From positions 1,664,001 through 1,728,000 of the forward strand of contig OZ245742.1 of NCBI GenBank assembly GCA_965227295.1: a DNA stretch of 64,000 nucleotides. The letters are read 5' to 3'. Shown piece by piece: positions 41,812-60,551 of the stretch (its first letter is position 1; every line of letters begins with the position of its first letter). Source of the DNA: Leptonemataceae bacterium. Its GTDB lineage: Bacteria; Spirochaetota; Leptospiria; Leptospirales; Leptonemataceae. The notes beneath the pieces were generated by a model. That model did not search any database. It saw only the letters and a list, made by a program, of their open reading frames with translations, and was not told the origin of the DNA. The position numbers and the translations under genes are program-made.

Positions 41812-41866
41812 ACAAAAAAAGCAAATCGACTTGACCCGTACGCAAAGCAGGCGGCAGACATTCTTC

Positions 41867-43628: not shown

Positions 43629-45845
43629 TTAGAACCGCACCACCGATTCCACCAGGTCGATCGAGCCCACGGCTTCGTCCTCCTGGATCTCGCCGCGCTG
43701 GCGCAGGATCTGGTGCACGTAGAAGTTCAGCGCCGGTGTGGAGCGGATGATCTGGGAAATGTCCTCTTTATCGAAGACGAGCAGGCTGCCGCCGTCCTTC
43801 GATTGAACCGTCGCATTGCGCACGCGATCCGCGAGGCTGCCGTACTCGCCGAACATATCCCCCGGACCGATGGACGCGAGCTCGGCGCCCTCACGCAGAA
43901 TGGCAAACGATCCGTTTAAGATGATGTAGAACTCGCGGCCGAGAGTGCCCTGTTCAATGACGGTCTCACCGGCGGCGACTTCCATGCGTCGACCCTGGGC
44001 GGCCAGGCGAGAGTTCACGACGTCGCCCAGTTCGTTGAAAGGATGATGCGGTTCCAGCTCGTGACGGTTTTGCCACATCGTCTTCAGTTCTTCGGCGCGG
44101 TTTTCGTTTTTCAAAAACGAGATGAACAGATCCTCGCTGATCTCACACAGGATCACGGGGATGCGCGCGACGATACTGGCGTTGCGGCGTTCGACATCGT
44201 TGACCACCGCCATGTCGCCGACGACCTCGCCGGCTTCTTTCACGCCCACCACGTGCATTTCCTCGCCGTCGTGATGCACCACGCTGACGTTACCCGAAAT
44301 GATGAAGTAGATGGTGCCGTTGCGCAGTTCGCCCTGCTTCATGATCACGTCGCCGGCGTTGTACTTCACGAGGCGCAGGTTGCCGAGCAACGCGGTCTCC
44401 CATTCCTCGCTGATGTCCGGGTAGTGACGCAACAACGTCTGCATGGTACGAATGACGTAGGCCGACTCCCGCGCTTCCTGTAAGATGAAACGTTTGCCAT
44501 GGGAAGCGAGCGTAAACGTCGTGTTGAATTCTTTCGGCAGCTGTTCCAGGTGTAGAAAGATGACCCGGTCCGAACGCGATTCCAGGGAATCGCGCGGGTC
44601 GCCGTGCAGGATGCCCATGCCGCCGTCCGCGAAGAAGAGATCGTGGCGGTCGCGGTAGAGCTTCTGAAGATACTCGTACTTATCGCGCGAGACGGTTCCG
44701 TCCTCGACCATCTTTTTGATATCCGGCAGGGCCTTGTTGTCGCCGACGAACACAATGCGATGGCGCTCGCCCTCGTACTCCATCTCGAAGGACGCGCCGA
44801 TGGTGGGAATGCTGTGCACGGTGTAGTGCGGCGTAATGGTCATGCCGTAGAAGTCGTTGGGCTGGTACGGCTCCAGTTCGACGAAGTCGAAGTACGAAAG
44901 GAATTCGTTTTGGTCGTGGCCGGTCATCAGCGCGAGTTTCTTACACGCCATCCAGAAGACCTCTCGCGTGGCCAGGAACTTCACCCGGTTATGAAACATG
45001 ACCAGCGGGAAGATGTTGCAGTGGTCGTCGTGAATGTGCGTGAGGAAGATCGATTTGATCTGCTCGCGGGAAACGCCGCGGGCGTTGAGGGCGTACTCTA
45101 AGTACGGCATGCAATCGATGAGCATGTACTCGGAGTTGTAGTTCAACAGCAGGCCGGAGCAGGGATTCGACGCGGCGAAACCCGAGGCGCCGCCCAGAAC
45201 GTCGATAGAAAACTTCGCCGGGAGCTGAGGTACGAAGTCCGGCCGCAGATCGTACGGCGGGACCTGTTCCACGTCGCTTTTCGGGTCGAGGTCCACGTCG
45301 ATGAGAGTGCCTTCGATTTCGTAAACATTGCGCTCGCGATGACGCAGCACGAAGTGTTCGGTTTGCAGCTCGCCGTTTTCGAAGGCGTGAAAGTTCACGA
45401 AGCCCTCGACGGGTATTTCGTGCCCCGCGGAATCCTTTACGGACAACGCCCGGGATTCGCGAAAGAGATTGCGAAAGTGCGGATTCGGGCCGAGCCCGGG
45501 TTTCTGTAACGCGGCGTACTCTTCCTGAGTCGGCCCGAGCAGCGACAGGCGGAGTAATTCGCGATTGTTGCGCACGGCCTTTGCTTCGCCGAGGATACTC
45601 AGCTTGCGTCCCTTGAAGAAGTGACCCTGGACGAACAGGAAGTAGTAAAACGGAAACTCCGTCGCATTTTGCAGGACGCCGCGGTGATGGATCGTATCCG
45701 GCAGGACGATGTAGTCCGGGAACGGGATGTCGCGGACGATGAGGTGTTTGATTACCTCCGGCGGACAGCCGAAAAGTACCGAGTACTCGTTCGTTTGAAA
45801 GACTTTGACGCCGGGGATTATGTCCAGAACGCGGTGCGAACTCAT
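43629..45845 (-). CDS. Metallo-beta-lactamase-fold hydrolase with two C-terminal cNMP-binding domains (putative cNMP phosphodiesterase)
   Basis: THIHDDH, HSIPT, LH motifs; cNMP domains GEVVGDMA...RRNASI and GDMFGEYG...RNATV. Confidence 0.85.
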   Translation of the reverse strand: MSSHRVLDIIPGVKVFQTNEYSVLFGCPPEVIKHLIVRDIPFPDYIVLPDTIHHRGVLQNATEFPFYYFLFVQGHFFKGRKLSILGEAKAVRNNRELLRLSLLGPTQEEYAALQKPGLGPNPHFRNLFRESRALSVKDSAGHEIPVEGFVNFHAFENGELQTEHFVLRHRERNVYEIEGTLIDVDLDPKSDVEQVPPYDLRPDFVPQLPAKFSIDVLGGASGFAASNPCSGLLLNYNSEYMLIDCMPYLEYALNARGVSREQIKSIFLTHIHDDHCNIFPLVMFHNRVKFLATREVFWMACKKLALMTGHDQNEFLSYFDFVELEPYQPNDFYGMTITPHYTVHSIPTIGASFEMEYEGERHRIVFVGDNKALPDIKKMVEDGTVSRDKYEYLQKLYRDRHDLFFADGGMGILHGDPRDSLESRSDRVIFLHLEQLPKEFNTTFTLASHGKRFILQEARESAYVIRTMQTLLRHYPDISEEWETALLGNLRLVKYNAGDVIMKQGELRNGTIYFIISGNVSVVHHDGEEMHVVGVKEAGEVVGDMAVVNDVERRNASIVARIPVILCEISEDLFISFLKNENRAEELKTMWQNRHELEPHHPFNELGDVVNSRLAAQGRRMEVAAGETVIEQGTLGREFYIILNGSFAILREGAELASIGPGDMFGEYGSLADRVRNATVQSKDGGSLLVFDKEDISQIIRSTPALNFYVHQILRQRGEIQEDEAVGSIDLVESVVRF

Positions 45846-46042
45846 TTTACAATCAGACCTTTCGCATCGAAGCGAGTCAATGAAAACCCCCGAAAACACG
45901 GGTGATCGGGACCCTTTATCTAACGAACATTTAACTGAAAACTCGCGCCCCTCTAACCTCCCCCGGTTGACTTTTGTTTGCAAAATGCCGTAGTAAGAAC
46001 ACGGAGTGACCGGCGCGCCGGAGTGCGGCCCGGCAGAGTATC

Positions 46043-49169: not shown

Positions 49170-50699
49170 CTAACGCGAAGAGGGCAAGCCCGTCACATCG
49201 TCCAGAGTCGCCCCGGCGAACCTCGCATCTTCCACATCCGCGCCCGCAAAACGCGCGCCGCTCAAGTCCGCCCCGCGAAAATCCGTCTCGCGTAGAATCG
49301 CGTCGCTAAAGTCTGCAAAGCGAAAGTTAGCCTCACGCGCGTCGGCCGAGCTGAGGTCGGCGTTCCGGAAGATCGTGCGGCGAAAGTCGGCCCGCCGCAG
49401 GTCCGCCCCGCGTAGATTCGCGTCCTCGAAATAACCGTAGATGAAGCGATCCGGCGCGGTCATGAATCGTAGAATGTCCTCACGCTCCGCCAGGTCCGGG
49501 TGCTCGGTAACGAAGGCCGGGGCGATGGAACGACCGGCCTGGCGCAGTTCGGAATCGTAGCGCAAGAGCCAGGGAGCCGCGCAGGCGGGCTCCGGCAGAA
49601 ACGGCTGCACTGCGCCGTCCGCTCCGAAGAATTGAAACTCGAGGGTATCGTCGAGCCAGTTTGTAAGATGAGCGAGGTTGCGAGAACGATCCGGCAGTTC
49701 GTCCGATACGCGCGCCCCGCGCAGATCGGCGGAGCCGAGATTCGCGCCGCGGAAGTTCGCAAGCAGCAGTCGCGCGTTTCGCAGATCGGCGGACAGCAGA
49801 ACGGCCCCGTAGAAAGATGCGCGATACAGGTCGGCGCCGCCCAGCTTCGCGTGCACCAGGTTCGCCCGGCGTAGATCGCTACAGCGCAGTACGGCCTCGT
49901 TCAGATTCGCGCGGCGCATGTCCGCGCGGGGCATGTAGAAACCGACAATCTCTCGCTCCTGGAGTTCGGCCTGCTGCAAATAGATCGTGCGCGCGAGCGG
50001 CGGAGATTCGCCGTTGAGGGCGCGGACTAATGTCCAGGAAAAAATAGTTAGTGCGAAGATTGCAAGAATCCGGTACGGAATGCCGGCATAGTACCGCGCT
50101 GTACCGCGGTTGCGGCGAATCAGCAAGAAGAGATTTACGCAAATACCGAAACAGGTGCCCATCAGCACAATGCCGGCCCGGGGATGGGGCAGGGCCTTCA
50201 CGGAAAACGCCAGCAGGGTCAGCGGCAGGACCCAGTAAAAGAGGATCTGTCCCAGGACCTCCGCCGCCCGGCTGCGCATCGTAAAAAAGTGCGACACGCT
50301 TTCGTTGCTGACTTCCAAACGCAGGCGATACCAACGTTCTAAGTACAGCTGTAAGTACGCATTGTACAACATTAAGGCGGAGGGCGCGAACATCAAGAAC
50401 AGGCCGTACTCCACTTGCACGCCGGTGAACGGCACGGCCACCCGGGCCTCGCTGTTCAGGAGCTCGACGTCGGACTTGCCCAGCGTGAGCAAACAGAACA
50501 CGCAGGCCCCCAACATGCCGAAGACCAGGCCGCGAATGGTTGCCGCCGCGGTTTCGTATTGTTTGTGGAGGTCGTCGGGTTCCAGGCCCAGGCTGTGATA
50601 GTACGGATACCACCAGGAGCGCGGAGGGCGATCCCGGTCGGCCAGGCGATAGAGAAGCGCCCAGGCGCAGGTACTCAGCCGGCCGGCGGTTCGGGCCAT
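49170..50699 (-). CDS. Pentapeptide repeat membrane protein; start uncertain
   Basis: About 5 TM followed by two blocks of A(D/N)LxxA(D/N)L repeats; overlaps the chaperone gene end by 25 bp. Confidence 0.85.
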   Translation of the reverse strand: MARTAGRLSTCAWALLYRLADRDRPPRSWWYPYYHSLGLEPDDLHKQYETAAATIRGLVFGMLGACVFCLLTLGKSDVELLNSEARVAVPFTGVQVEYGLFLMFAPSALMLYNAYLQLYLERWYRLRLEVSNESVSHFFTMRSRAAEVLGQILFYWVLPLTLLAFSVKALPHPRAGIVLMGTCFGICVNLFLLIRRNRGTARYYAGIPYRILAIFALTIFSWTLVRALNGESPPLARTIYLQQAELQEREIVGFYMPRADMRRANLNEAVLRCSDLRRANLVHAKLGGADLYRASFYGAVLLSADLRNARLLLANFRGANLGSADLRGARVSDELPDRSRNLAHLTNWLDDTLEFQFFGADGAVQPFLPEPACAAPWLLRYDSELRQAGRSIAPAFVTEHPDLAEREDILRFMTAPDRFIYGYFEDANLRGADLRRADFRRTIFRNADLSSADAREANFRFADFSDAILRETDFRGADLSGARFAGADVEDARFAGATLDDVTGLPSSR

Positions 50700-51169
50700 T
50701 CGATCCCGTCCGGATCGCTGAACTTTTTCGGCAGCTCACGCAGGTTTTTGCGATAGCGTCGCCACTGTTCGCGTTCGGCGTCCGTGATGGGATAGTCCGG
50801 AATCATGTACTTATCGCTCGCCGTGAGCAGTTCGTTCCGGCGTGCGCGGACTTCGTTCCAGCGCTTTTTTTCCAGGCGTTGCGCCCGGGCGTCCTCATCG
50901 CCGGAGAGCTCACCGTCGACGTAGGCGATCTCGCGGATCTGGAAGTCTTCGGCGCGAAGCTCGTCGTACTTCCGTTGCAGTTCCGCCCTGAGCTCAATGA
51001 CCGTGTGCGGGGCCGCGGGAATTTTCGGCATGCCCACGTGATCTTTCGGGAGATCGTCGCGCCAGGCGAAGAAGTCTTCGATGCGCTCGAAGCCCCGGGC
51101 GAAGGACTCGCATTCGACAGGATCGGCCACGACGGTCAGCAGGTGTTTGTTTTGGATGGCGGCGTACAT
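50675..51169 (-). CDS. Phage tail fibre assembly chaperone-like protein
   Basis: WNEVRARRNELLTASD...PDYP...WRRYRKNLRELP...IEWPEPP. Confidence 0.88.
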   Translation of the reverse strand: MYAAIQNKHLLTVVADPVECESFARGFERIEDFFAWRDDLPKDHVGMPKIPAAPHTVIELRAELQRKYDELRAEDFQIREIAYVDGELSGDEDARAQRLEKKRWNEVRARRNELLTASDKYMIPDYPITDAEREQWRRYRKNLRELPKKFSDPDGIEWPEPPAG

Positions 51170-51190: not shown

Positions 51191-54100
51191 TTAGTCGATT
51201 TTTTCCAGGGTGAAGGAGTTGTGGTGTTCGCTGTAGTGCATATTCATAGTGCCGTTGTTGGCCCCGTGCAGGACGTCGCCTTCCTTCAAGAAAAGGGTCA
51301 GGTCGGTGTTGCTTTCGATCAAATAGGTGCCACTGTGCCCGTACGAATACTTAAAGACCAACCCGTTCAGATGCCAGCCGATGGAAGCGTAGTTGTTGGC
51401 GATGTAGTTCGTCTTCAGGCGGTACGTGCCGGACTCTTTGATGTACCAGGCGCCGTGCTGGTTGCTGTAGACGACGTTTTTCGTGCCATAGGGCACCGGC
51501 ATTGCCACCGAGTTCTGGAGGGAGCCGCGTACTCGCTCGCAACGAAAACGATCGCCGGTGCCGTTGCCGTAGCTGGTGCTCTTCGATACCTGGCTCCACA
51601 CGGACGGCGACTTACGACGCCCCCGCGCAACCAGATCGCGGAGTTCGCGCGTTGTGTAGTTTTTCGCGTCGTAGACGATGAGATCGTCGTTCGTAATCCC
51701 GTCGCCGCCGCCCACCAGATCGGCGAGCGTGGCCGACTCGTGACGTGCGTAGTGATTCGCGCGGTGCACGGGTGTCACCACTTCGATCGCGCCGGCGTAA
51801 TGATAAAAGCCGCTCGTGATATCGCTGACCACTTCAATCCTGTGATCACCGAGGGGGAGGCCGAGAATCGAAATGGAACTCGCGTAGTCGCCGTCGCGAC
51901 CGGGTGTAAAGACGCCCGTCGACGGATTGATGGAACCGCTGGTCGTGGATGTAACGTAACCGAGTAGATTGGAACTACCGTCGATGTAGATCGTAAAGCC
52001 GGCCGTGTCGCTGATGTCGCGAAAGCGCAGCACGGCGCCGGTGCCGTAAAAACGCAGGCCGTAGCGGATGTTCTTCGTGACGTTACCACCCTGTACGATC
52101 AGGCCGCCGATGTCCTGCGGCTGCGGGGCCTCCACGTAGTTCCAACGGATGTCGGTGGCGGAATCCTCATCGTAGTAAAAATCTCGCGTGCCATGCGAGC
52201 GCCGGGTGCCGATGGGCTGAACGTTCACGGAGGGTTCCGTTTGTTGCACGACGTCCGCGAGCCGCGAGTATTCACCGAGAACGAGAAAGTTCTCCGGCAG
52301 TTCCGCGCGCCGGGGCTGAAAGATTTCGAAGTATTCGAACACCTGCGAGGTGTGATCCCGGGAGATCTGCACGCCGTCGAGGGTGATGATGGTCTCCGGA
52401 TTATTCTCGGCATCGGGCACGCGGAACCATTCGACGGTGTGCGTTCCGAGCGGCAATCCCGAGCAGAGATCATACGAGGTGTGCCGGTTGCGCGAGTGGC
52501 GTGTATACTTCTGAATGTCCTCGCGCACGCCGACCCGTAGTCCCGTACCAAAGAAAGTTAAGCGAAAGAATCCGTTGCTGTTATAGGTGCGCACGGCCGG
52601 CGTATCGTAGTAGTCGGTTTCAACGGTCTGACCGGTCAGCGACGTACAGCCGTCGTCCATCACGAAGGCGCGGTTGCTGTTCGAGCGAATCGTATCGAAG
52701 CCGCCGAAGACCGTGGCCGTGGCGTTTTTGTCGCCGTTGCCGAACTCAAAGGCATGCAGTCTCTCGGAACGCTCCTCGCGGGAATAGTCCGGTGCCTGGT
52801 CATCAATGACCGGGCGGGACTGGCCCTGATCGCGTTCGTCTTTTATGCTGCGTGCTTCGAAAGGTACGAACTGTTTGCTCGCGGAGTCGAAGACGAGCAC
52901 GCTGCCGGCGACATTGTAGCTGCTGAGCGGGCTGCGATAGTAAGACGGTACGAACGCGAAGGTATCGCTGTTGAAATTGAGGAAGGCGATGTTTTGACTG
53001 CCCCAGGACTTGATGCGCTGCATGGGAGCGAAGCGGGTTCCGTCCCAGCGCAGAATGTGGGACTCCGTGCTATGGGTGCTGCCGTTGTAGAACTGTCCGA
53101 CAGACACAAAGGTCTCGTCGCCGACATGTACGTGACGGATGTGACTGATGGCCGGCAGTTCGATTTCGTGTAGATACTCGAACTGCGTTCCGTTCCACTC
53201 GTAAACCTGGCTGGATGTATTGTAATTGCCGCCGTCGTAGTAGCTGCCGTAGATCAGGAAGTGCCGCGCCGAAGGACCGGACCCCACGCTTACGAAGTCG
53301 AGGTCGTGCGTCCCGGTGGTGGAGATGGACTGGAACGGTGACGATGTATCGAACTGAGTGCCGTTCCATTTATAGATGCGGGAACTAATATTGTGCGAAC
53401 TTCCGTTGTAGTTCTCCGAGAATGCGAGGTAGTGTTCGCCGTCGATCGTAAAGAACCTGGCGGAGTGGGCGTAATTGGTGCCGATGGACTGGAACGGCGT
53501 GGTGAAGTCGAACTGGGTGCCGTTCCATTTGAATATCTCGCAGTTGGTGTTGTAGGTGTAGACCGCGAGCAGGTAATGATCGCTGCCGATGGCAAAGTAC
53601 AGCCATTCAAGCAGGGCGTTTTTGACCAGGCTCTGGGTCTGTACAAACTGGCTGCCGTCCCATTTATGGACGGTGGATGTCAGGGATTGGCCGCCCGAGC
53701 TATTGTGGTTGACTGCCGCGAGGTAACTCTCGCCGTCGATCTCGAATGACTCCAGGCATGTGGCACCGGTCGTATCGATGTCCTGCACATGTTCCAGGTC
53801 GCCTCCGTTCCAGCGGAAGATTCGTGAATCCACGGCGTAGTTCCCGTTATAGTACTGCGGCACGGCCAGGAACATTTCCGAACCGATCTGAAACGGTTCG
53901 GAACGATACTGTCCCGCTCCCACAAACTCCGCCATCTCTCCGAGCGCCGAGGCCCGGGGCGGTACCCAGTTCACCGCGCAGCTAACCGTGGCGTTGCCGG
54001 CCAGGTCCCGGGACGTCGGATGCGCGAACCAGCTTACCCGCCCGCCGTAGAGCGGTCGGCGATGATTGAAGCTCGCGTTCGCAAAGGTGCCGTCAGCAGC

Positions 54101-56983
54101 ATCTAAGACCTTGTATACGCGCTGTTGCGAAGACGAGTACACCACCTCGTTCGCGACCAGGTCCGTACGGCTCGTAATGTCCGCCACCGTCCGGTCGATC
54201 GTATCCACCTGCGTCCAGACGACCTTGTCCGGGCTCAGCGCCTGGTGTTCATCCGCGAACAGGTTCTTTAAGTACTGCACGCGATAGACGCCGCCGTTGG
54301 TCGTGTTTAACACATGATCATGTACATTTAAGGCGGGGCTGAAAACCTGCGGTGCCGTGTGATCGGCGACGGCCAGAACAACGGGGACGTAGTTCTCCCA
54401 GGCATCGAGGCCCTCGTCGTAATAGCCAGGGCCGTCTTCGTCCAGGCCGTAGCCGTCACTCCAGGGATCGCAGAGATAGTCGTGGCTATCGGCAGCGACG
54501 TTCACTGCTTCGCCGTTGAACATTGCGGTTTGCGCGGGCAAATCGACCTTGTTTTCGTTGCCGGCGTCTTCGCGCGTGGCGATCATATCGAGACCGTAGG
54601 CGCTCCAGGCGTCGCCCAGCGTTATGCGTGCCGTGTGAATCGCCGGCGGGGCACCGGTGCGGAAGCCCTCTTTCGAAACGGAGATGGTATCCAGGTAACG
54701 ATTGTTCAGCGGCGTCGTTTCCATAATCGAAAACGCATCCACCGTGACCGGGCCGCCGCCGTCCAGTTCCACGGTCCAGCCGCCCTCGATGTTGCCGGGA
54801 TAGTGTAGAAAATCGAAGCCGTTGAAGTAGCCGCTGATTTCTACGTAGGCCCATTGACCGTACAACACGGGGCGAGTACCGTTAAGGTCATTGTACACTG
54901 TGACCGGCCCGTCCGAAACGATGCGCAGATCGTCCCGTCCCTCGATCTTATACACCATCCAGCCGTCGGGGCCGCGTTCGCCCATCGCTTCGACGATGTC
55001 GTCGAACAGAATGCGCCGGCGTCCCAGGAACATGCCCAGGGCCGGCGAAACCATGGGCTCGCGATTCTCAATTGTCGTAAAAAATAACTTACGGCCGAAC
55101 TCATCCGTGGTGCCGTGCTTCGCCGCGTCGTTGGTTGGATGCAGATACTCCGGCATCAGCCCGTAGTAACTTTGCGCGTTGCCGACGTTGGTGAGCATCG
55201 AACCGTCGCCGATAAACTTGCTTGCACGAACGTTACCGTCCACGTCCAGACGATGCAGCGAGGTCACCGCGTTCGGCCCCAGCGCCGTGTTGCCGTCGTT
55301 CGTAATGTTGCCGGTGACCGTGAGATTGCCGCCGGTGCTCGTATCGCCGCTGATGTCCGCCGTGCCGTCGACGGAAAGATTTTCCGCGACGTGCACGGCG
55401 TCGTCGATTTCCAATGCGCCGGAAGTGTGGAGCGATTCTAAGGTTCCATGAATCGTAACTTTGTCCTCGTCCTGGTCGCCCAGAAGGATGTCGCCGGGCT
55501 CGTGCTGGGTATCCCGCGCAATGACGTCGCCCTCGACGTAGAAGTCGCCTTTGATCGTAAGATTCTGATCCACCTGAACGTTCTGCTTAAACAACGCGTC
55601 CAGGTCGACGTTGAGACCCGCCTCGATGTTCAGCGTGCCGGTCATGGTATCGCCGAAGCGGTTGACCTTGTTTTCCACGAGGTTGTCCGACTTCGCAATG
55701 TCCACCAGGCTCGCGAACTGTACACGCGTGTCGGCGATCACGGACCAGGAATCCGAGAGAAGCTGTACAAATGCCAGGCGAGCGTATCTTACGATCTCAC
55801 TCCGCGGCGGTTGCGCCGTCGGCCCGCTGCCGTCGCAGGGCCATTCGATGCCGCGGTTGATCGTGCGCGCAGGAATCAACCAGTAGTCCCCGCTCTTGTA
55901 ATCACCGCCGCTCGCGAAGGTAATTTCAATGCCGCCTTCGAGTTCGAACCAACTATCGTCGTCGGGAATGGTGATCGTCCCGGTGCCGTCCACCTGGTCC
56001 CAGCGGCGAATCAGCGTCCGTCCGTCCGGAAACGAGGCAAGATCGTACGGTCCGGTGGCCGTGGCGGCGTCGATGGTGAGGGTGTCGCCCTCGGTACTCA
56101 GGATGCGTGCCAGGGTTCCGCTTTCGCCGCGTAACTCACGCCCCTCGTCAGTGAGTTCAATCCACTGCCCCGCGGCGAAAGAAGAGGCCGCATCCCGGGA
56201 CGAATCCAAAAACGTGAGCGTCGTACCCGAGGCGTCCGTCCACCCGGCGTTGACCGAGCCGTTTTCCCGGGACCACTTGAACGTTGCGCTGCCTGCCGCC
56301 CCGGCGTCGTGCACTTCCACGCGATAGAGGCGATTCTCCGGAATGGAATAGCCGCCGCGCAGTTGGGCCGCGCACGGATCCTGGCCCTGTTCCACCGTGT
56401 CGCCGGTGCGGGCGTTGAGCGTGGCCGAAGAACCGGCGATGAGATTGCTCCACTCCGTCGGCAGACTGTCTTCGGTAAGCGTTCCCGGAGCGTCGGCGAT
56501 CTTCAGTAACTTCACCTGGCCAAGAGTTTGCGAACGCCCGGCGGTGTCCGGGCCGCCCAGGGCCGGTTCGCGCAGCATGGAATCTTCGCGGTGACTGATC
56601 AAACGTTCACGGATTTGCAGATACACCAAATAGGCCGAGTCGTTGGCGGGATCGCTCGCATCGGGCAGAGAGTAGCCGGGCAATTGCGTCTGAGAACCGA
56701 TGGAACGATCGGCGTCGTTTTCGACGAGGATGCCGCCGGCATAGTAACGTCCTGCCGAAATCTCCAGATCGCTGCCGCCGCCGACGGCGCTGACCTGAAA
56801 GCCGCCGCCGGTAGCCGGCGCGCCCTCACCCGTGGAATCGTTCATGCGTTCACGGATTTCGCGTTGGATGATGTCGTGTTGTTCGTTCCAGTCGGCGTCC
56901 AGAATGGTGCGGCCCTGCTGCAGGCGGACGCCGGTATAACGTTTACTGGATTGATGGCTGTCGCGGGAAATGTCGCTCTTCAA
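51191..56983 (-). CDS. DUF6519 eCIS/phage-type tail fibre: beta-helix shaft, seven EAR/EPTP repeats, C1q-like C-terminus
   Basis: TTG start after GAGG gives MKSDISR...YTGVRLQQGRTILDADWNEQ; also REPALGGPDT, ENRLYRVEVH, FKWSRENGS and GDYWLIPART; LTIKGDFYVEG-type repeats; FIGDGSMLTNV. Confidence 0.85.
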   Translation of the reverse strand: MKSDISRDSHQSSKRYTGVRLQQGRTILDADWNEQHDIIQREIRERMNDSTGEGAPATGGGFQVSAVGGGSDLEISAGRYYAGGILVENDADRSIGSQTQLPGYSLPDASDPANDSAYLVYLQIRERLISHREDSMLREPALGGPDTAGRSQTLGQVKLLKIADAPGTLTEDSLPTEWSNLIAGSSATLNARTGDTVEQGQDPCAAQLRGGYSIPENRLYRVEVHDAGAAGSATFKWSRENGSVNAGWTDASGTTLTFLDSSRDAASSFAAGQWIELTDEGRELRGESGTLARILSTEGDTLTIDAATATGPYDLASFPDGRTLIRRWDQVDGTGTITIPDDDSWFELEGGIEITFASGGDYKSGDYWLIPARTINRGIEWPCDGSGPTAQPPRSEIVRYARLAFVQLLSDSWSVIADTRVQFASLVDIAKSDNLVENKVNRFGDTMTGTLNIEAGLNVDLDALFKQNVQVDQNLTIKGDFYVEGDVIARDTQHEPGDILLGDQDEDKVTIHGTLESLHTSGALEIDDAVHVAENLSVDGTADISGDTSTGGNLTVTGNITNDGNTALGPNAVTSLHRLDVDGNVRASKFIGDGSMLTNVGNAQSYYGLMPEYLHPTNDAAKHGTTDEFGRKLFFTTIENREPMVSPALGMFLGRRRILFDDIVEAMGERGPDGWMVYKIEGRDDLRIVSDGPVTVYNDLNGTRPVLYGQWAYVEISGYFNGFDFLHYPGNIEGGWTVELDGGGPVTVDAFSIMETTPLNNRYLDTISVSKEGFRTGAPPAIHTARITLGDAWSAYGLDMIATREDAGNENKVDLPAQTAMFNGEAVNVAADSHDYLCDPWSDGYGLDEDGPGYYDEGLDAWENYVPVVLAVADHTAPQVFSPALNVHDHVLNTTNGGVYRVQYLKNLFADEHQALSPDKVVWTQVDTIDRTVADITSRTDLVANEVVYSSSQQRVYKVLDAADGTFANASFNHRRPLYGGRVSWFAHPTSRDLAGNATVSCAVNWVPPRASALGEMAEFVGAGQYRSEPFQIGSEMFLAVPQYYNGNYAVDSRIFRWNGGDLEHVQDIDTTGATCLESFEIDGESYLAAVNHNSSGGQSLTSTVHKWDGSQFVQTQSLVKNALLEWLYFAIGSDHYLLAVYTYNTNCEIFKWNGTQFDFTTPFQSIGTNYAHSARFFTIDGEHYLAFSENYNGSSHNISSRIYKWNGTQFDTSSPFQSISTTGTHDLDFVSVGSGPSARHFLIYGSYYDGGNYNTSSQVYEWNGTQFEYLHEIELPAISHIRHVHVGDETFVSVGQFYNGSTHSTESHILRWDGTRFAPMQRIKSWGSQNIAFLNFNSDTFAFVPSYYRSPLSSYNVAGSVLVFDSASKQFVPFEARSIKDERDQGQSRPVIDDQAPDYSREERSERLHAFEFGNGDKNATATVFGGFDTIRSNSNRAFVMDDGCTSLTGQTVETDYYDTPAVRTYNSNGFFRLTFFGTGLRVGVREDIQKYTRHSRNRHTSYDLCSGLPLGTHTVEWFRVPDAENNPETIITLDGVQISRDHTSQVFEYFEIFQPRRAELPENFLVLGEYSRLADVVQQTEPSVNVQPIGTRRSHGTRDFYYDEDSATDIRWNYVEAPQPQDIGGLIVQGGNVTKNIRYGLRFYGTGAVLRFRDISDTAGFTIYIDGSSNLLGYVTSTTSGSINPSTGVFTPGRDGDYASSISILGLPLGDHRIEVVSDITSGFYHYAGAIEVVTPVHRANHYARHESATLADLVGGGDGITNDDLIVYDAKNYTTRELRDLVARGRRKSPSVWSQVSKSTSYGNGTGDRFRCERVRGSLQNSVAMPVPYGTKNVVYSNQHGAWYIKESGTYRLKTNYIANNYASIGWHLNGLVFKYSYGHSGTYLIESNTDLTLFLKEGDVLHGANNGTMNMHYSEHHNSFTLEKID

Positions 56984-57162
56984 AAGGGAACCTCGAGGCA
57001 GATGTGCTACCCGTCTGTAACCCGGGATCCCCTTCCGCTGCAATGCAAAGAGCGGCAAAGCTACTCAGCTTAGATAAAATTCAGGACATTCTTGCAAAAT
57101 ATGAAACGCCGGCCGCGCCGGTTTGTGCAACGTTAAACCGTTCGAGGAGGAACGTTGCGTGC

Positions 57163-60138
57163 TCACGGGATTTCCAGATCTTTGAGCTTATTGTAGAAGG
57201 TTGCACGCTTAATGCCCAGCAAACGCGCCGCCTTTTGTTTGTTCCCGTTGCTCGCGGAAAGGGCTTCTTCTATTATTAACTTCGAATAATCCCGCACCAG
57301 ATCATCGAAACTCTTCTGATGTATGGAGAGTTCCGGTGAAACTTCCGGCGCGCGAGAAACGCCTCCGAAGTTTGGCTGCTGCAACTGCCGCGGCAAATCC
57401 TCGACGCGCAGCGTCTCCGTGCCGGCGTGAATGAGCGCATGGATGATGGTGTTTTCCAGTTCACGAATGTTGCCGGGCCAGGTATACGAGCAGAGCGTAT
57501 CCAGCGCACGATGATCGATGCCGCTCACCGGCTCTCCCAGTTCTCCGGCGTACTTTTCAATAAAGTGATGCACCAGGGCCGGAATGTCTTCGGCCCGATC
57601 GCGCAAAGCGGGCACCTTGAGTTCCAGGACGGAGATGCGGTAATAAAGATCTTCCCGGAAGCGGCCCTGGCCTTGCTCTACGAAGAGGTCGCGATTCGTG
57701 GCGAACACGAAACGACAACGCGCCTCGATTACTTTATCACCGCCCAGGCGTTGGAAGCGACGTTCCTGCAGCAGGCGCAGGAGCTTCGGCTGAATTTCCA
57801 GGGGCATCTCGCCGATCTCGTCGAAGAACAACGTGCCGCCGGCAGCCTGTTCCACGCGCCCGGCGTGACTCTTTTTCGCGTCTGTAAAGGCGCCGCGTTC
57901 GTGGCCGAAGATTTCGGACTCCCACAAAGATGCCGGCACAGCCGCGCAGTTGATCGCCACAAAGGGGGCGTCGCTTTCCCCGGAGGCTCCGTGGAAGGTG
58001 CGAGCCACTAACTCTTTGCCGGTACCGGTTTGTCCGGAGATGAGCACCGGTTGCGAGCGTGTGCCGTAGCGCCGGGCGTCCTCGTAAATGCGCGCCATGG
58101 CCTCGCTGGCGTAGACGAGACTTTTGTTGTCGCCGACACTGCGGTGTTTGATCACCTCGCCCATGCCGCTTAAGTACTCCGAGAGTCGATGGATCTTCGC
58201 CTCGGCGCGTCCTTTGAGCCGGCGAATTTCTTCAAAGAGGACGGCGTTGCGAATGGCGAGGGCGAGGGAAAACCGAAAGCTTTCGAGCAGCATAATCTCA
58301 GACGTCTCGTAGAACAGGCCGCCCCGGCGCGGTCCCAGGACCAGGTACCCGAAGATCTCTTTGCGAAACGAAAGCGGGGCACAGAGCTGGAAGCCGTGCT
58401 CTTTTAACGCATCAATGACTCCGTAAATCGTTTCGATGGTACTCGCGTACTTCTCTTTCAACTCCGGGGCGTGATCAAAGGGCTGCCCCGAGTACGTTTC
58501 CAGGAGGATCACCGTATTGAGATACGGAAAGAGATCTTCCGGGGCTCGGAGGAAGCGCGCAACGAAGGCTTCGCCGCTGATGACTGCGCGCAGGCTGTCG
58601 GGGAAGTCGCCCGCGGAGTGCGCGCGATTTTCGCGATCGGCAATGATGATGAAGCCGCGCTCAAAATCCAGCAGCCGCCGCAACGTATCCAGGATGCGAT
58701 GCAGCAAAACATCGATGGCGCCGGCGTCGTTCGCGTCGCTGTTGTTCGTGTCGGTCGCTTCGTTGTCGCCGGCATCGAGGGCGAGCAGTTCGTCCTTGAT
58801 CGTTTCGGAGTTTCGCAGATGGTGAATCAGCTCCGCCTGATGCGCGTTGGCCAGGCGTTCCTGTTCCAGAGCCGCCTCCCGGGCGGCCAGGGTTTGTCGT
58901 CGCAATTCATTGTAACGATCGCCGACCGCGAGCGACAGGAAGATCGCCTCGGCCGCCGTGCCGGCCTGAAAGCCGTACTCCGTGATCGTCGTGCTCGGGA
59001 GCAGTCCCCATACTTTCAACGCGTACAACAGGCCGCCGAAGGACAGCGTATACCAGGCGAGCAGATAGAATCTTGCAAAGCGATGTCCGGCCCGCAGCGC
59101 GTACATTCCGGCGGCAATGATCAATACCACCGTACCCATGCCGAGCAGCACGGCGACGCGAATCAAGTAGAAGTAATCGATACCGGTGAAGGCCAGCGCC
59201 GCGGTCAGCAGGGCGGCCACCATGGCCGCGCGCACGAAGGCGTGCAGGCGCGGAGTGATTAACCGTAGATTCAGAAACGCCGTTGCGAACGCCAGCGAAA
59301 CGAAGATGGCCACCGAAAAGAAAAACGCCGTGGCCTCCCGGGCGATCCATAGCGACTCGAGTCCGAACCAGGCGAAAGCGAACTCACTCAACAGGCCGTT
59401 CAGTGAAAGTTGAAACAGTCCGTGCAACGTAACCAGGGTCGCCGCGTAGTACAGAAAACTCAAGTCACGCACCGAGACGAACAGGAAGATGTTGTAGATG
59501 AGTGTAACGGCAATGAGGCCGTAGTACAGACCGAGGCTGAAGCGCGTGTTCATGGTGTGCGCGTGGAAGTCCTCCGGTGAACGCAAGGCTAAAGGTACGT
59601 TGAGAGAATCTTTGCTGTGCACGCGCAGGTAGACGGTCCTGGTGGACCGGGGCGGAAACTCGATCGAAAACGCAAAGTTACGCTGCGCCGCGGCGTGGCG
59701 GCCGGCCATGCCGAAAAGGCGTCCCGCGCGTCCTGCGAGTTGCGGTTCGGCGTCGCGCGCGTCGAGAAGGAAGACGTGCACCGAGTCGAGCAGGGGATAA
59801 CCGATTTCCAGCAGGCGCCGGGCCGGGCGATCTCCGGGGTTGCGCACATCGAAACGCAACCACACGGCCTCGCGCACATAACCGAAGTTCGGCGTCGCCG
59901 CGGTGGTCGGACGAAACTCCGCCTGGCCGGCCAGAATCCCGGCGAGCACGGCCCTCACATGATCCGTTTCGGCGGCCGCGGGGCGTGCGGAGTCGGGTTC
60001 GATCCAGGAGGACGCGTGCAGACCGGGCGATCCACGCCCGGCCGTTGTCTCCAGCACGATGGAAGGCCCGGCGGAGTTCCGGCTGTCGCAGGCCGAAAAA
60101 GTCAGAAAGAGAAATACGAAGCAAATGCGGCGAGTCAT
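57163..60138 (-). CDS. Membrane-bound sigma54 enhancer-binding protein (7TM-DISM, GAF-like, AAA+, Fis HTH)
   Basis: NFGY...WLRF and GLYYG 7TM-DISM motifs; GQTGTGKE, GAFTDA, FDEIGEM, FREDLYYR, WPGNIRELEN, AARLLGI. Confidence 0.93.
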   Translation of the reverse strand: MTRRICFVFLFLTFSACDSRNSAGPSIVLETTAGRGSPGLHASSWIEPDSARPAAAETDHVRAVLAGILAGQAEFRPTTAATPNFGYVREAVWLRFDVRNPGDRPARRLLEIGYPLLDSVHVFLLDARDAEPQLAGRAGRLFGMAGRHAAAQRNFAFSIEFPPRSTRTVYLRVHSKDSLNVPLALRSPEDFHAHTMNTRFSLGLYYGLIAVTLIYNIFLFVSVRDLSFLYYAATLVTLHGLFQLSLNGLLSEFAFAWFGLESLWIAREATAFFFSVAIFVSLAFATAFLNLRLITPRLHAFVRAAMVAALLTAALAFTGIDYFYLIRVAVLLGMGTVVLIIAAGMYALRAGHRFARFYLLAWYTLSFGGLLYALKVWGLLPSTTITEYGFQAGTAAEAIFLSLAVGDRYNELRRQTLAAREAALEQERLANAHQAELIHHLRNSETIKDELLALDAGDNEATDTNNSDANDAGAIDVLLHRILDTLRRLLDFERGFIIIADRENRAHSAGDFPDSLRAVISGEAFVARFLRAPEDLFPYLNTVILLETYSGQPFDHAPELKEKYASTIETIYGVIDALKEHGFQLCAPLSFRKEIFGYLVLGPRRGGLFYETSEIMLLESFRFSLALAIRNAVLFEEIRRLKGRAEAKIHRLSEYLSGMGEVIKHRSVGDNKSLVYASEAMARIYEDARRYGTRSQPVLISGQTGTGKELVARTFHGASGESDAPFVAINCAAVPASLWESEIFGHERGAFTDAKKSHAGRVEQAAGGTLFFDEIGEMPLEIQPKLLRLLQERRFQRLGGDKVIEARCRFVFATNRDLFVEQGQGRFREDLYYRISVLELKVPALRDRAEDIPALVHHFIEKYAGELGEPVSGIDHRALDTLCSYTWPGNIRELENTIIHALIHAGTETLRVEDLPRQLQQPNFGGVSRAPEVSPELSIHQKSFDDLVRDYSKLIIEEALSASNGNKQKAARLLGIKRATFYNKLKDLEIP

Positions 60139-60475: not shown

Positions 60476-60491
60476 TGGCACGGCGGTTGCA
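60476..60491 (+). promoter_or_regulatory. Sigma54 -24/-12 promoter of the lipase gene
   Basis: TGGCAC-GGCGG-TTGCA, exact consensus TGGCAC-N5-TTGCW. Confidence 0.9.
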
Positions 60492-60551
60492 GTAGCACAC
60501 CAGAACATCGCGGAGACAAACAGACCGCGGCAATGCATCAGGAGAATGAAC

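What the first reader, a model, noticed from the sequence alone, without database searches (positions are those of the whole stretch)
52868..53942. Complete seven-repeat EAR/EPTP (LGI1/TSPEAR-like) propeller inside a bacterial tail fibre
Seen: seven consecutive ~45-57 aa repeats with consensus Q-x-I-x-T-x-G-x-x-x-x-x-x-F-x-I-x-G-x-x-(Y/F)-L...S-x-(I/V)-x-x-W-(N/D)-G-x-x-F, for example QDIDTTGATCLESFEIDGESYLAAVN...STVHKWDGSQF and FQSIGTNYAHSARFFTIDGEHYLAFSEN...SRIYKWNGTQF. Known: this is the pattern of the epitempin/EAR repeat of animal LGI1, TSPEAR and ADGRV1, where seven repeats form a ligand-binding beta-propeller. Inference: an injection-system fibre carries a module best known from eukaryotes as a receptor-binding domain, possibly for a eukaryotic or glycan target.
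Basis: partly seen in the sequence, partly recalled or inferred. Interest (0 to 1): 0.85.

Follow-up and report, generated by a model that had tools for sequence, protein, structure and literature searches.

The report
EPTP propeller in a bacterial tail fibre
A giant bacterial tail-fibre protein really does carry a seven-bladed propeller of the type known from the human epilepsy protein LGI1, but this propeller type turns out to be common in bacteria, so it is one more interchangeable binding module rather than a borrowed animal part.

Summary
Window 52868-53942 (minus strand) encodes seven 43-57 aa repeats. They match Pfam EPTP (PF03736, E 3.7e-29, 7 stretches) and fold with high confidence (pLDDT 91.9) into a seven-bladed propeller. 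Its best solved match, by sequence and by fold, is the LGI1 EPTP domain (Z 35, rmsd 2.0 A).

The host gene (51191-56983, 1930 aa) starts with DUF6519. A 2026 paper calls this domain eBAP5, a baseplate anchor of extracellular contractile injection system (eCIS) fibres. A tail-fibre assembly chaperone gene follows 21 nt downstream, and this pair recurs at 3 of 3 orthologous loci.

The gene is not in an eCIS operon. It is one of seven dispersed DUF6519 paralogues that share the anchor and neck but differ distally (tail-collar tips, C1q, an FG-GAP propeller, EPTP). The genome has three eCIS clusters. One has a long Tail_P2_I gene and no fibre gene of its own. In 3 of 4 relatives a DUF6519 gene directly follows that gene.

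EPTP is not eukaryote-specific: 1081 cluster representatives match, mostly closer than LGI1, often with bacterial sorting signals. A eukaryotic or glycan target is untested. Verdict: new member of a known kind, moderate interest.

The parts
51191..56983 (-). Fibre gene, 1930 aa, including the stop codon at 51191-51193. The probable start is TTG at 56983, which is codon 26 of ORF 51191..57058.
   Evidence: ORF list and translation. The start was chosen because the paralogues and orthologues begin M-x-x-D-x-S-R at this point. The database holds an identical 1930-aa protein, P0003. No N-terminal hydrophobic signal-like stretch is seen by eye; no signal-peptide predictor was run.
55700..56983 (-). 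N-terminal DUF6519 domain (eBAP5 baseplate anchor), about 428 aa.
   Evidence: Pfam PF20129, E 3.7e-47, 161.6 bits against a cut-off of 22.4. It is 41-47% identical to the six paralogues over residues 1-428. Passages of PMC12923769 name DUF6519 as eBAP5.
55388..55687 (-). Conserved neck of about 100 aa, shared with all six paralogues.
   Evidence: BLASTP gives 31-54% identity to the paralogues over residues 433-532 of the 1930-aa protein. It is the best conserved region among the orthologues, at a mean of 66%. There is only a weak Bactofilin-like hit below the cut-off.
53945..55387 (-). Middle region of unassigned fold, about 480 aa.
   Evidence: No Pfam family over its cut-off. It is conserved in the orthologues at a mean of 55%. 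It lacks the DUF2341 and Laminin_G_3 block that the six paralogues carry in this position.
52862..53929 (-). Seven-bladed EPTP/EAR beta-propeller (ORF residues 1044-1399).
   Evidence: Pfam EPTP with 7 stretches. AlphaFold2 model with pLDDT 91.9 and pTM 0.90. LGI1 EPTP is the best solved match by Foldseek (E 1.8e-15, TM 0.81-0.82 on the EPTP-only chains) and by VIA-align (Z 35.1, rmsd 2.0 A over 305 residues).
53795..53923 (-). EPTP repeat 1 (43 aa)
53645..53794 (-). EPTP repeat 2 (50 aa)
53510..53644 (-). EPTP repeat 3 (45 aa)
53351..53509 (-). EPTP repeat 4 (53 aa)
53180..53350 (-). EPTP repeat 5 (57 aa)
53030..53179 (-). EPTP repeat 6 (50 aa)
52874..53029 (-). EPTP repeat 7 (52 aa). It is the most degenerate repeat and ends VFDSASK instead of W-N-G.
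51194..52861 (-). C-terminal 556 aa: predicted all-beta, fold unresolved. The last 160 aa or so form the distal tip.
   Evidence: The AlphaFold2 model has pLDDT 46.7 and is unusable. There is no Pfam family over its cut-off, no ESM Atlas hit and no phage tblastn match for the last 270 aa. The tip is the second most divergent part among the orthologues, at a mean of 40%.
50675..51169 (-). Tail-fibre assembly chaperone gene (164 aa), 21 nt downstream of the fibre stop codon.
   Evidence: Pfam Phage_tail_APC, E 9.3e-19. PHROG tail-fibre assembly families, best E 7e-21. It is the only copy in the genome. It lies directly downstream of the fibre at 3 of 3 orthologous loci. Homologues occur in 29 phage records.

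Best explanation
The gene encodes a giant (1930 aa) tail fibre of the eBAP5/DUF6519 class used by extracellular contractile injection systems.

Shown here: the N-terminal 430 aa and a 100-aa neck are shared with six paralogues in the genome. The distal two-thirds are unique and hold a genuine seven-bladed EPTP/EAR propeller followed by about 550 aa of beta-rich sequence. A phage-type tail-fibre assembly chaperone gene follows, and the fibre-chaperone pair is conserved across orthologous loci.

Inferred mechanism: the protein has no evident signal peptide, so it is made in the cytoplasm. It trimerises, with the chaperone folding its C-terminal tip. It docks through the DUF6519 anchor on the baseplate of an eCIS encoded elsewhere. 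The best candidate is the cluster at about 5.71-5.73 Mb of the genome, which has a long Tail_P2_I protein and no fibre gene of its own. On the released particle the fibre presents the propeller and the tip as target-recognition surfaces. The propeller most likely binds a surface ligand through its loop-rich face, as propellers including LGI1 EPTP do (recalled, not tested here). The seven paralogues give the cell alternative specificities on one anchor.

The propeller came from a large bacterial pool of EPTP propellers, not recently from animals.
For: EPTP identity:
- Pfam EPTP E 3.7e-29 with 7 stretches.
- phmmer against the PDB finds LGI1 alone below E 1e-6 (4 of 6 listed rows; the other 2 are at E about 0.9).
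- A profile of five orthologues finds LGI1 only (4 of 4 rows, best E 1.1e-19).
- AlphaFold2 model: pLDDT 91.9.
- Foldseek: the top 7 rows are all LGI1 (E 1.8e-15 to 7.6e-14) and the next row is at 4.3e-8.
- VIA-align: LGI1 Z 35.1 at rmsd 2.0 A, against the next best Z 30.8 at rmsd 3.1 A.

Fibre identity:
- DUF6519 scores 161.6 bits, and passages of PMC12923769 define DUF6519 as eBAP5.
- The adjacent Phage_tail_APC chaperone is conserved at 3 of 3 orthologous loci.
- The C-terminal tail-collar tips of three paralogues are 42-51% identical to the tips of two short fibres inside eCIS cluster 1.

Link to an eCIS:
- The genome has three clusters with Pvc16_N, sheath, Baseplate_J and Tail_P2_I. Cluster 3 also has CIS_tube, eCIS_core and an AAA ATPase, and a TPR gene rather than a fibre gene follows its Tail_P2_I.
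- In 3 of 4 relatives examined, a DUF6519 gene directly follows the orthologue of that 750-aa Tail_P2_I protein.
- Among 41 related genomes, the long Tail_P2_I and DUF6519 occur in exactly the same 5, which belong to 3 genera.

Module swapping:
- The seven paralogues share residues 1-428 and about 100 aa of neck, then diverge.
- Their distal modules are tail-collar tips (3 intact, 1 split), C1q (1), a seven-repeat FG-GAP_2 propeller (1) and EPTP (1). EPTP is found in no other gene of the genome.

Specificity signal: among five orthologues, the propeller (mean identity 37%) and the tip (40%) are the most divergent parts, against 52-66% elsewhere.

Bacterial pool and fibre use elsewhere:
- 1081 representatives match at E<=1e-3 and 202 at E<=1e-30. 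EPTP is confirmed in 32 of 32 short homologues.
- EPTP also occurs with Phage_tail_fib N-terminal (P0122) and with the Peptidase_S74 fibre chaperone (P0042).
Against: - The gene is not in an eCIS operon. It lies about 120 kb from the nearest cluster. The EPTP orthologues in two sister genomes are 0.47 to more than 1 Mb from any Pvc16_N hit. The paper reports that about 90% of fibre genes lie downstream of baseplate genes.
- The paralogue anchors are only 41-47% identical, so a shared docking site is assumed, not shown.
- The propeller is internal: 556 aa follow it. The chaperone-served tip may therefore be the main receptor binder.
- The low conservation of the propeller could reflect relaxed constraint or blade-register misalignment rather than diversifying selection. 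Only five orthologues were compared, and no dN/dS analysis was done.
- No ligand, expression or particle data exist.
- Trimerisation was not modelled.
- Genomes of relatives are not independent: the 5-of-41 co-occurrence rests on 3 genera.
Confidence: 0.6

Rival explanations
1. The protein is an eCIS-type fibre, but the EPTP propeller is not the primary receptor binder. It is a lateral, secondary or purely structural module on the shaft. The chaperone-dependent C-terminal tip makes the decisive contact.
For: - 556 aa follow the propeller.
- A dedicated tail-fibre assembly chaperone follows the gene at 4 of 4 loci, this one included. In phages such chaperones act on distal tips (recalled knowledge).
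- The tip is almost as divergent as the propeller: mean identity 40% against 37%.
- In four paralogues the module at the C-terminal end is a recognised tip domain, tail-collar or C1q.
Against: - In the paralogue at 5.80 Mb the FG-GAP propeller is itself the C-terminal module, so a propeller can sit at the distal end in this family.
- The EPTP propeller is the most divergent region among the orthologues.
- EPTP recurs in other fibre scaffolds.
- The only characterised EPTP domain is a ligand binder: the PDB entries found are LGI1-ADAM22 complexes.
Confidence: 0.3
2. The protein does not belong to an eCIS. It is the fibre of a phage, prophage or tailocin, or a free-standing giant adhesin that reuses a fibre-like N-terminus.
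For: - No structural genes lie within the 64-kb window.
- All seven paralogues lie far from the three clusters.
- The paper itself notes that DUF6519 may mark fibres in phage or other systems.
- The chaperone's homologues are in phages, 29 records.
- PHROG phrog_877 weakly matches the N-terminus.
Against: - DUF6519 genes sit directly after the eCIS Tail_P2_I gene in 3 of 4 relatives.
- DUF6519 co-occurs exactly with the long Tail_P2_I protein in 5 of 41 genomes.
- Tip domains are shared with in-cluster eCIS fibres.
- No signal peptide is evident, which argues against a Sec-exported adhesin.
- tblastn of the propeller and of the tip against 50,697 phage records finds nothing.
Confidence: 0.12
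3. The repeats form an ordinary bacterial propeller (FG-GAP, YVTN/LVIVD, WD40-like) that only superficially resembles EPTP.
For: - All seven-bladed propellers superpose well: 788 of 48,161 chains reach Z>=8 and integrin alpha propellers reach Z 28-29.
- Identity to LGI1 is only 13-15%.
Against: - Pfam finds EPTP and no FG-GAP family at E<=1. The FG-GAP paralogue scores 1.2e-83 on FG-GAP_2.
- Sequence searches of the PDB find LGI1 only.
- LGI1 stands apart in Foldseek by seven orders of magnitude. In VIA-align it leads by more than 4 Z units and has the lowest rmsd.
Confidence: 0.02

Closest known systems
EPTP/EAR domain of human LGI1 (PDB 5Y2Z, 5Y31, 8HPY; Pfam PF03736)
   Same: - Seven EPTP repeats forming a seven-bladed propeller.
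- It is the only solved protein found by sequence (E 2.1e-8 with the single sequence, 1.1e-19 with the orthologue profile).
- It is the best fold match (Z 35.1, rmsd 2.0 A over 305 residues).
   Different: - Identity is only 13-15%.
- LGI1 is a Sec-secreted animal protein with an N-terminal LRR domain, and its EPTP domain is C-terminal. Here the propeller is internal to a 1930-aa fibre with a DUF6519 anchor.
- Conservation of LGI1's ADAM22-binding residues was not examined.
eBAP5 (DUF6519) tail fibres of extracellular contractile injection systems (PMC12923769, Nat Commun 2026; passages seen)
   Same: - N-terminal DUF6519 anchor.
- Giant, modular distal part built from binding folds.
- The genome holds eCIS clusters with Tail_P2_I, the baseplate type the paper links to eBAP3 and eBAP5.
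   Different: - The paper's main text lists macroglobulin, pectin-lyase, lectin and haemagglutinin modules for eBAP5. It never mentions EPTP: 0 occurrences. Its supplements could not be read.
- This gene is encoded far from any eCIS operon and has a separate Phage_tail_APC chaperone.
The six DUF6519 paralogues of the same genome, especially the one at 5,804,619-5,809,316 with a C-terminal FG-GAP_2 propeller
   Same: - They share the anchor (41-47% identity) and the neck.
- They are giant and dispersed.
- One also uses a seven-repeat propeller as its distal module.
   Different: - All six have a DUF2341 plus Laminin_G_3 block that this protein lacks.
- None has EPTP.
- None has an adjacent Phage_tail_APC chaperone, which is single-copy in the genome.
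Bacterial EPTP-domain secreted and surface proteins (for example S8 peptidases of Candidatus Sericytochromatia, and proteins sorted by T9SS, PEP-CTERM or dockerin)
   Same: - They have the same propeller family and are much closer than LGI1: 27-49% identity, with E down to 1e-120 and beyond.
   Different: - They carry signal peptides or sorting domains and enzyme or adhesin partners.
- Their repeats are far more regular. The fibre propellers sit on long branches in the domain tree.
Other fibre-type proteins with EPTP (P0122: Phage_tail_fib N-terminal plus EPTP; P0042: EPTP plus Peptidase_S74)
   Same: - An EPTP propeller embedded in a protein with a recognised tail-fibre domain.
   Different: - Their anchors and chaperone systems differ, and they have no DUF6519.
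- Their genomic context was not examined.

Membership tests
EPTP/EAR repeat family (Pfam PF03736) | Sequence match to the EPTP repeat model above the curated cut-off | tested here: met
   101 bits against a cut-off of 21, E 3.7e-29, 7 stretches. 120.2 bits for the domain alone.
EPTP/EAR repeat family (Pfam PF03736) | Seven repeats that close into a seven-bladed beta-propeller | tested here: met
   Seven repeats. The AlphaFold2 model has pLDDT 91.9 and pTM 0.90 and is all-beta. This is a prediction, not an experiment.
EPTP/EAR repeat family (Pfam PF03736) | The closest solved structure is an EPTP domain rather than another propeller class | tested here: met
   LGI1 fills the top 7 Foldseek rows and the top 2 VIA-align rows, at Z 35 and rmsd 2.0 A. 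It is the only significant PDB sequence hit.
EPTP/EAR repeat family (Pfam PF03736) | Ligand binding on the propeller face, as in LGI1-ADAM22 | not tested
   No interface residues were compared and no ligand is known.
eBAP5/DUF6519 eCIS tail fibres | N-terminal DUF6519 domain | tested here: met
   PF20129, 161.6 bits against a cut-off of 22.4.
eBAP5/DUF6519 eCIS tail fibres | An eCIS with a Tail_P2_I-type baseplate is present in the same genome | tested here: met
   Three clusters with Pvc16_N, sheath, Baseplate_J and Tail_P2_I.
eBAP5/DUF6519 eCIS tail fibres | The gene lies downstream of the baseplate genes in the eCIS operon (about 90% of catalogued fibres, per a passage of PMC12923769) | tested here: not met
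   There are no eCIS genes in the window, and the nearest cluster is about 120 kb away. The feature is met by DUF6519 paralogues in relatives G001, G002 and G019. It is typical rather than obligatory.
eBAP5/DUF6519 eCIS tail fibres | Physical attachment to the baseplate and presence on particles | not testable with these tools
   This needs particle purification or binding assays.
Phage-type tail fibre with a separate assembly chaperone | A tail-fibre assembly chaperone gene lies immediately downstream | tested here: met
   Phage_tail_APC, E 9.3e-19, 21 nt downstream. PHROG tail-fibre assembly families. Conserved at 3 of 3 orthologous loci.
FG-GAP propellers (Pfam FG-GAP, FG-GAP_2) | Sequence match to FG-GAP repeat models | tested here: not met
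   No FG-GAP family is listed at E<=1 for this protein. A paralogue hits FG-GAP_2 at 1.2e-83.

The most novel reading that the evidence does not exclude
This genus arms one contractile injection system in trans from a dispersed arsenal of giant fibres. There are seven here, all on one anchor. In this genome the system's in-operon fibre gene has been lost altogether. The EPTP fibre recognises a protein receptor through the propeller face in the way LGI1 holds ADAM22. The animal EPTP/EAR domain of LGI1, TSPEAR and ADGRV1 descends from this large, overlooked bacterial propeller family rather than the reverse.
Probability: 0.12. Interest if true: 0.7.

Novelty: new member of a known kind. Interest (0 to 1): 0.4.

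Why it matters
Fibres set the target range of contractile injection systems. The published catalogue of their binding domains does not mention EPTP in its main text.

This work shows three things:
- A true EPTP propeller sits in a DUF6519 fibre.
- The same propeller recurs in at least two other fibre scaffolds.
- It belongs to a bacterial family of more than a thousand sequence clusters.

Together these add a binding fold to that catalogue. They also correct the habit of reading EPTP as a eukaryote-like domain, as was done for a sponge symbiont MAG in PMC7848895.

The genomic picture is the more interesting part. Seven trans-encoded fibres share one anchor, and a matching eCIS has no fibre gene of its own. 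This gives a testable case of specificity set by genes scattered outside the operon.

For neurobiology, the bacterial family offers many divergent EPTP sequences for understanding the fold of LGI1.

Tried and rejected
- the finding's raw coordinates were out of frame (7 stops). I used in-frame coordinates from then on.
- Complex prediction of the long Tail_P2_I protein with the first 240 aa of the fibre: five requests did not complete because the machine was busy. The job was accepted. The answer was 'no answer' (score 0.02, mark 0.32). This says nothing either way about binding.
- AlphaFold2 of the C-terminal 560 aa with a 5-row alignment: pLDDT 46.7. This is too poor for a fold search, so none was run and the fold of that part stays open.
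- ESM Atlas on residues 1400-1955: no usable hit.
- BLASTP for internal repeats between the middle and C-terminal regions: nothing below E 1.
- tblastn against 50,697 phage records: no match for the propeller or for the last 270 aa.
- Foldseek against BFVD viral models: only generic propellers (best E 2.0e-11, TM 0.51, rmsd 8.3 A).
- Sigma-54 promoter consensus (recalled motif) with up to 2 mismatches: 60 matches against 58.6 expected, and none in the 56984-57162 gap upstream of the fibre. Regulation by the adjacent sigma-54 activator is therefore unsupported. That neighbour and the pentapeptide gene are also not conserved at the orthologous loci.
With the whole protein it returned 5 loci that match only the DUF6519 part, from Desulfobacteraceae, actinomycetes and Calidithermus.
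- The look-up of sequencing runs: no RNA holder listed.
- The search of earlier findings: nothing.
- The second word-indexed search, with the domain alone, returned only 10 proteins, too few for a census.
- The phylum sample for EPTP scored only 17 first-look candidates per genome. The 2 of 401 is therefore a lower bound.
- Literature: searches for DUF6519, for EPTP + bacterial + beta-propeller and for EPTP + prokaryot found no paper on bacterial EPTP propellers. The one exception is a passing mention in PMC7848895.
Full report
**1. The observation**

The finding's coordinates lie on the minus strand inside one long ORF, 51191..57058. Cutting after the W-(N/D)-G-x-x-F motif gives seven consecutive repeats of 43, 50, 45, 53, 57, 50 and 52 aa.

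The repeats are far beyond chance. Pfam's EPTP model (PF03736) scores 101 bits against a curated cut-off of 21, with E 3.7e-29 and 7 stretches. For the excised 381-aa domain it scores 120.2 bits.

The gene most likely starts at the TTG at 56983. All paralogues and orthologues begin M-x-x-D-x-S-R at that point. The database holds an identical protein of 1930 aa (P0003).

**2. What the repeats are**

Sequence evidence:
- phmmer of the domain against all PDB chains lists six sequences. Four are LGI1 (E 2.1e-8 to 2.5e-7) and two are noise at E about 0.9.
- A profile of five full-length orthologues finds LGI1 and nothing else (4 of 4 rows, best E 1.1e-19).

Structure evidence:
- AlphaFold2 with a 32-row alignment gives a confident all-beta model (mean pLDDT 91.9, pTM 0.90).
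- In Foldseek against the PDB the first seven rows are LGI1 (E 1.8e-15 to 7.6e-14; TM 0.81-0.82 on the EPTP-only chains). The next row is a lectin propeller at 4.3e-8.
- VIA-align, which does not depend on Foldseek, ranks LGI1 first (Z 35.1, rmsd 2.0 A over 305 residues). Next come the leptospiral Lp49 propeller (Z 30.8, rmsd 3.1 A) and integrin alpha FG-GAP propellers (Z 28-29, rmsd 3.4-3.7 A).

That test fails, so the domain is a true EPTP/EAR propeller.

**3. The protein and its immediate neighbours**

Domain order of the protein:
- Residues 1-428 of the 1930-aa protein are DUF6519 (PF20129, 161.6 bits against a cut-off of 22.4).
- A neck of about 100 aa follows.
- Then come about 480 aa with no family assignment.
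- Then the propeller.
- Then 556 aa that are predicted all-beta but could not be modelled (pLDDT 46.7).

A 2026 paper defines DUF6519 as eBAP5, one of five N-terminal baseplate-anchor domains of eCIS tail fibres. I saw passages of PMC12923769 only, through text search. Its supplements are closed.

Neighbouring genes:
- Twenty-one nucleotides downstream lies a 164-aa gene with a Phage_tail_APC domain (E 9.3e-19). It matches PHROG tail-fibre assembly families (best E 7e-21). It is the only such gene in the genome and has homologues in 29 phage records.
- The fibre-chaperone pair is conserved at all three orthologous loci examined in two sister genomes.
- The next gene (pentapeptide repeats) and the upstream sigma-54 activator are not conserved neighbours.
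- No sigma-54 promoter-like site lies upstream of the fibre gene.
- The rest of the 64-kb window is ordinary chromosome. It encodes signalling proteins, peptidases and transporters, and no tail or injection-system genes.

**4. The wider genome**

The window sits in a 5.94-Mb single-contig genome.

Paralogues:
- The genome encodes seven DUF6519 proteins of 1218-1975 aa, scattered around the chromosome.
- Against ours they share residues 1-428 (41-47% identity) and the neck, and nothing after it.
- All six others carry DUF2341 plus Laminin_G_3. Their distal modules are a phage tail-collar tip (three intact genes, and one gene split into 1218-aa and 449-aa ORFs), a C1q domain (one), and a seven-repeat FG-GAP_2 propeller (one).
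- EPTP occurs in our gene only.

eCIS clusters:
- The genome has three eCIS clusters, each with Pvc16_N, sheath, Baseplate_J and Tail_P2_I. None is within 75 kb of a DUF6519 gene. Ours is about 120 kb from cluster 1.
- Cluster 1 encodes two short fibres of its own. Their tail-collar tips are 42-51% identical to the tips of three giant paralogues, so tip modules are exchanged between in-cluster and dispersed fibres.
- Cluster 3 has sheath, CIS_tube, eCIS_core, AAA ATPase, Pvc16_N, Baseplate_J and an unusually long (750 aa) Tail_P2_I protein. A TPR gene, not a fibre gene, follows that protein.

Evidence from relatives:
- In relatives G001, G002 and G019, a DUF6519 gene starts 29-78 nt downstream of the orthologue of the long Tail_P2_I protein. 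In the fragmented G008 assembly it does not.
- Across 41 related genomes, DUF6519 and the long Tail_P2_I protein occur in exactly the same five (G000, G001, G002, G008, G019; three genera). Neither was found in the other 36. Relatives are not independent, so this is a pattern, not a statistic.
- The EPTP fibre itself is found only in the three genomes of the window's genus among those 41. In the two sister genomes it also lies far from any Pvc16_N hit.

**5. EPTP in bacteria**

A full HMMER scan of 1.84 billion cluster representatives with the domain gives 1081 matches at E<=1e-3, 616 at E<=1e-10 and 202 at E<=1e-30. By comparison, LGI1 would sit near the E<=1e-3 margin of that list.

Partner domains:
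- All 32 short homologues tested are Pfam EPTP (best E 1.7e-99). Some carry bacterial sorting signals or related domains: Por_Secre_tail in 3, and CHU_C, PEP-CTERM and Dockerin in 1 each.
- All 19 long proteins carry EPTP. Five of them have DUF6519, four are S8 peptidases named Candidatus Sericytochromatia, and others pair EPTP with cadherin, C1q/NHL, an FGE-sulfatase domain or LRR/beta-helix domains.
- Named sources also include Anaerolineae and Trebonia.
- One hit comes from a EukProt transcriptome (P0010).
- EPTP also occurs in other fibre-type proteins. P0122 has a Phage_tail_fib N-terminal domain and P0042 a C-terminal Peptidase_S74 chaperone. P0149 and P0150 end in C1q but begin with signal peptides.

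Distribution:
- Within the window's own phylum the domain is rare. It was found in 2 of 401 sampled genomes, the window's own included, with truncated candidate lists.

Domain tree:
- A FastTree of 65 full-length propeller domains used local support only. I dropped 7 near-duplicate cluster members and added 2 orthologue domains by alignment coordinates.
- It places ours with the fragment P0022 (support 100), and then with P0007, P0008 and P0115 (support 99).
- The P0107/P0018 pair lies nearby with weak support, and all of these sit on long branches.
- This fits one or two acquisitions by the fibre lineage, followed by fast divergence.

**6. How it most likely works**

Shown:
- A DUF6519 anchor and neck shared by seven paralogues.
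- A genuine EPTP propeller.
- A conserved downstream chaperone gene.
- eCIS clusters in the genome.
- The link between DUF6519 genes and the long Tail_P2_I cluster in relatives.

Inferred:
- The protein has no evident signal peptide (read by eye; no predictor was run). I infer that it is assembled in the cytoplasm as a trimer.
- Its tip is folded by the chaperone.
- It docks by its anchor on an eCIS baseplate, most plausibly that of cluster 3.
- It presents the propeller and the tip to the target surface. The seven paralogues would give alternative specificities.

Among five orthologues the propeller (mean pairwise identity 37%) and the tip (40%) are the most divergent parts, against 52-66% elsewhere. 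This is the pattern expected of specificity determinants. However, five sequences and possible blade-register misalignment make this evidence weak.

The only EPTP ligand known from solved structures is a protein, ADAM22 (entry titles). A protein receptor is therefore as good a guess as a glycan. Nothing here indicates a eukaryotic target.

Main rivals:
- The chaperone-served tip, not the internal propeller, is the primary binder (0.3).
- The protein serves a phage or tailocin, or acts alone (0.12).

**7. Comparison and novelty**

As a domain, it is a member of Pfam EPTP. As a protein, it fits the eBAP5 fibre class. It departs from that class in location (trans-encoded), in its separate phage-type chaperone and in its distal modules.

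The fibre catalogue's main text never mentions EPTP (0 occurrences), although its supplementary tables may. My literature searches found bacterial or archaeal EPTP mentioned only once, as a 'eukaryotic-like' domain in a sponge symbiont MAG (PMC7848895, passage seen). A review passage confirms that LGI1, GPR98 (ADGRV1) and TSPEAR are the known animal EPTP genes (PMC3691968).

I therefore file it as a new member of a known kind. The dispersed seven-fibre arsenal is a more interesting side result than the propeller itself.

**8. Limits**

- There are no expression data; no RNA run is listed.
- The middle and C-terminal regions have no usable model.
- Trimerisation and docking were not tested.
- The names Afp/PVC and Tfa, the role of such chaperones at fibre tips, and the idea that LGI1 binds ADAM22 on a propeller face are recalled knowledge, not results of calls.

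Noticed in passing
Own genome G000:C1, seven loci: 438472-443874(+), 619914-623651(-), 1715194-1721064(-), 2621383-2627325(-), 3679152-3684926(-), 5466653-5472685(+), 5804619-5809316(+): There are seven dispersed giant DUF6519 fibre paralogues. They share an anchor and neck but have different distal modules: tail-collar tips, C1q, an FG-GAP_2 propeller and EPTP. None is next to an eCIS cluster.
   Followed up: yes
L013:5744-7093(-) and L013:6912-10568(-) (G000:C1:618743-623567): The shortest paralogue (1218 aa) ends in a partial tail-collar hit. It overlaps a 449-aa ORF that is 44-45% identical to the C-terminal 420-450 aa of three other paralogues. It looks like one fibre gene split by a frameshift.
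   Followed up: partly
G000:C1:5706418-5726961 (L020, L037): This eCIS cluster has sheath, CIS_tube, eCIS_core, AAA ATPase, Pvc16_N, Baseplate_J and a 750-aa Tail_P2_I protein. A TPR gene follows instead of a fibre gene. In relatives G001, G002 and G019 a DUF6519 fibre gene follows directly.
   Followed up: yes
G001:C2:1182699-1210542 and 1316899-1331005; G002:C10:131572-155937 and 268832-282961: The sister genomes hold tandem arrays of three or four DUF6519 genes. These include open frames of 5457 and 5497 aa, and one array sits directly downstream of the eCIS.
   Followed up: partly
window 60476-60490 (+): An exact match to the sigma-54 promoter consensus TGGCAC-N5-TTGC lies 56 nt upstream of the alpha/beta-hydrolase gene 60546-61484. 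That gene is divergent from the 7TMR-DISM sigma-54 activator gene 57163-60138(-). The activator probably controls that gene, not the fibre.
   Followed up: partly
window 49170-50699 (-): A 509-aa pentapeptide-repeat protein gene overlaps the 3' end of the chaperone gene by 25 nt, so it is probably co-transcribed with the fibre. It is not present at the orthologous fibre loci.
   Followed up: partly
window 43629-45983 (-): A 784-aa protein has two cyclic-nucleotide-binding domains and a metallo-beta-lactamase fold. It also gives a weak, sub-threshold match to the anti-Pycsar nuclease Apyc1 (22.1 bits against a cut-off of 50). It lies next to a HerA-like ATPase gene at 41681-43474.
   Followed up: no
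L018:2410-3912(+) and L018:3954-5336(+) (G000:C1:1589409-1592335): eCIS cluster 1 carries two tandem short fibres (500 and 460 aa, 42% identical to each other) directly after Tail_P2_I. Their N-termini read R-Y-F-(N/D)-G-L...E-Q, and they have tail-collar tips shared with the giant paralogues.
   Followed up: partly
P0010 (EukProt transcriptome protein, 1340 aa): A protein from a eukaryotic transcriptome set has two full EPTP propellers that are much closer to the bacterial family (E 1.1e-57) than LGI1 is. It could be a protist gene or bacterial contamination.
   Followed up: no
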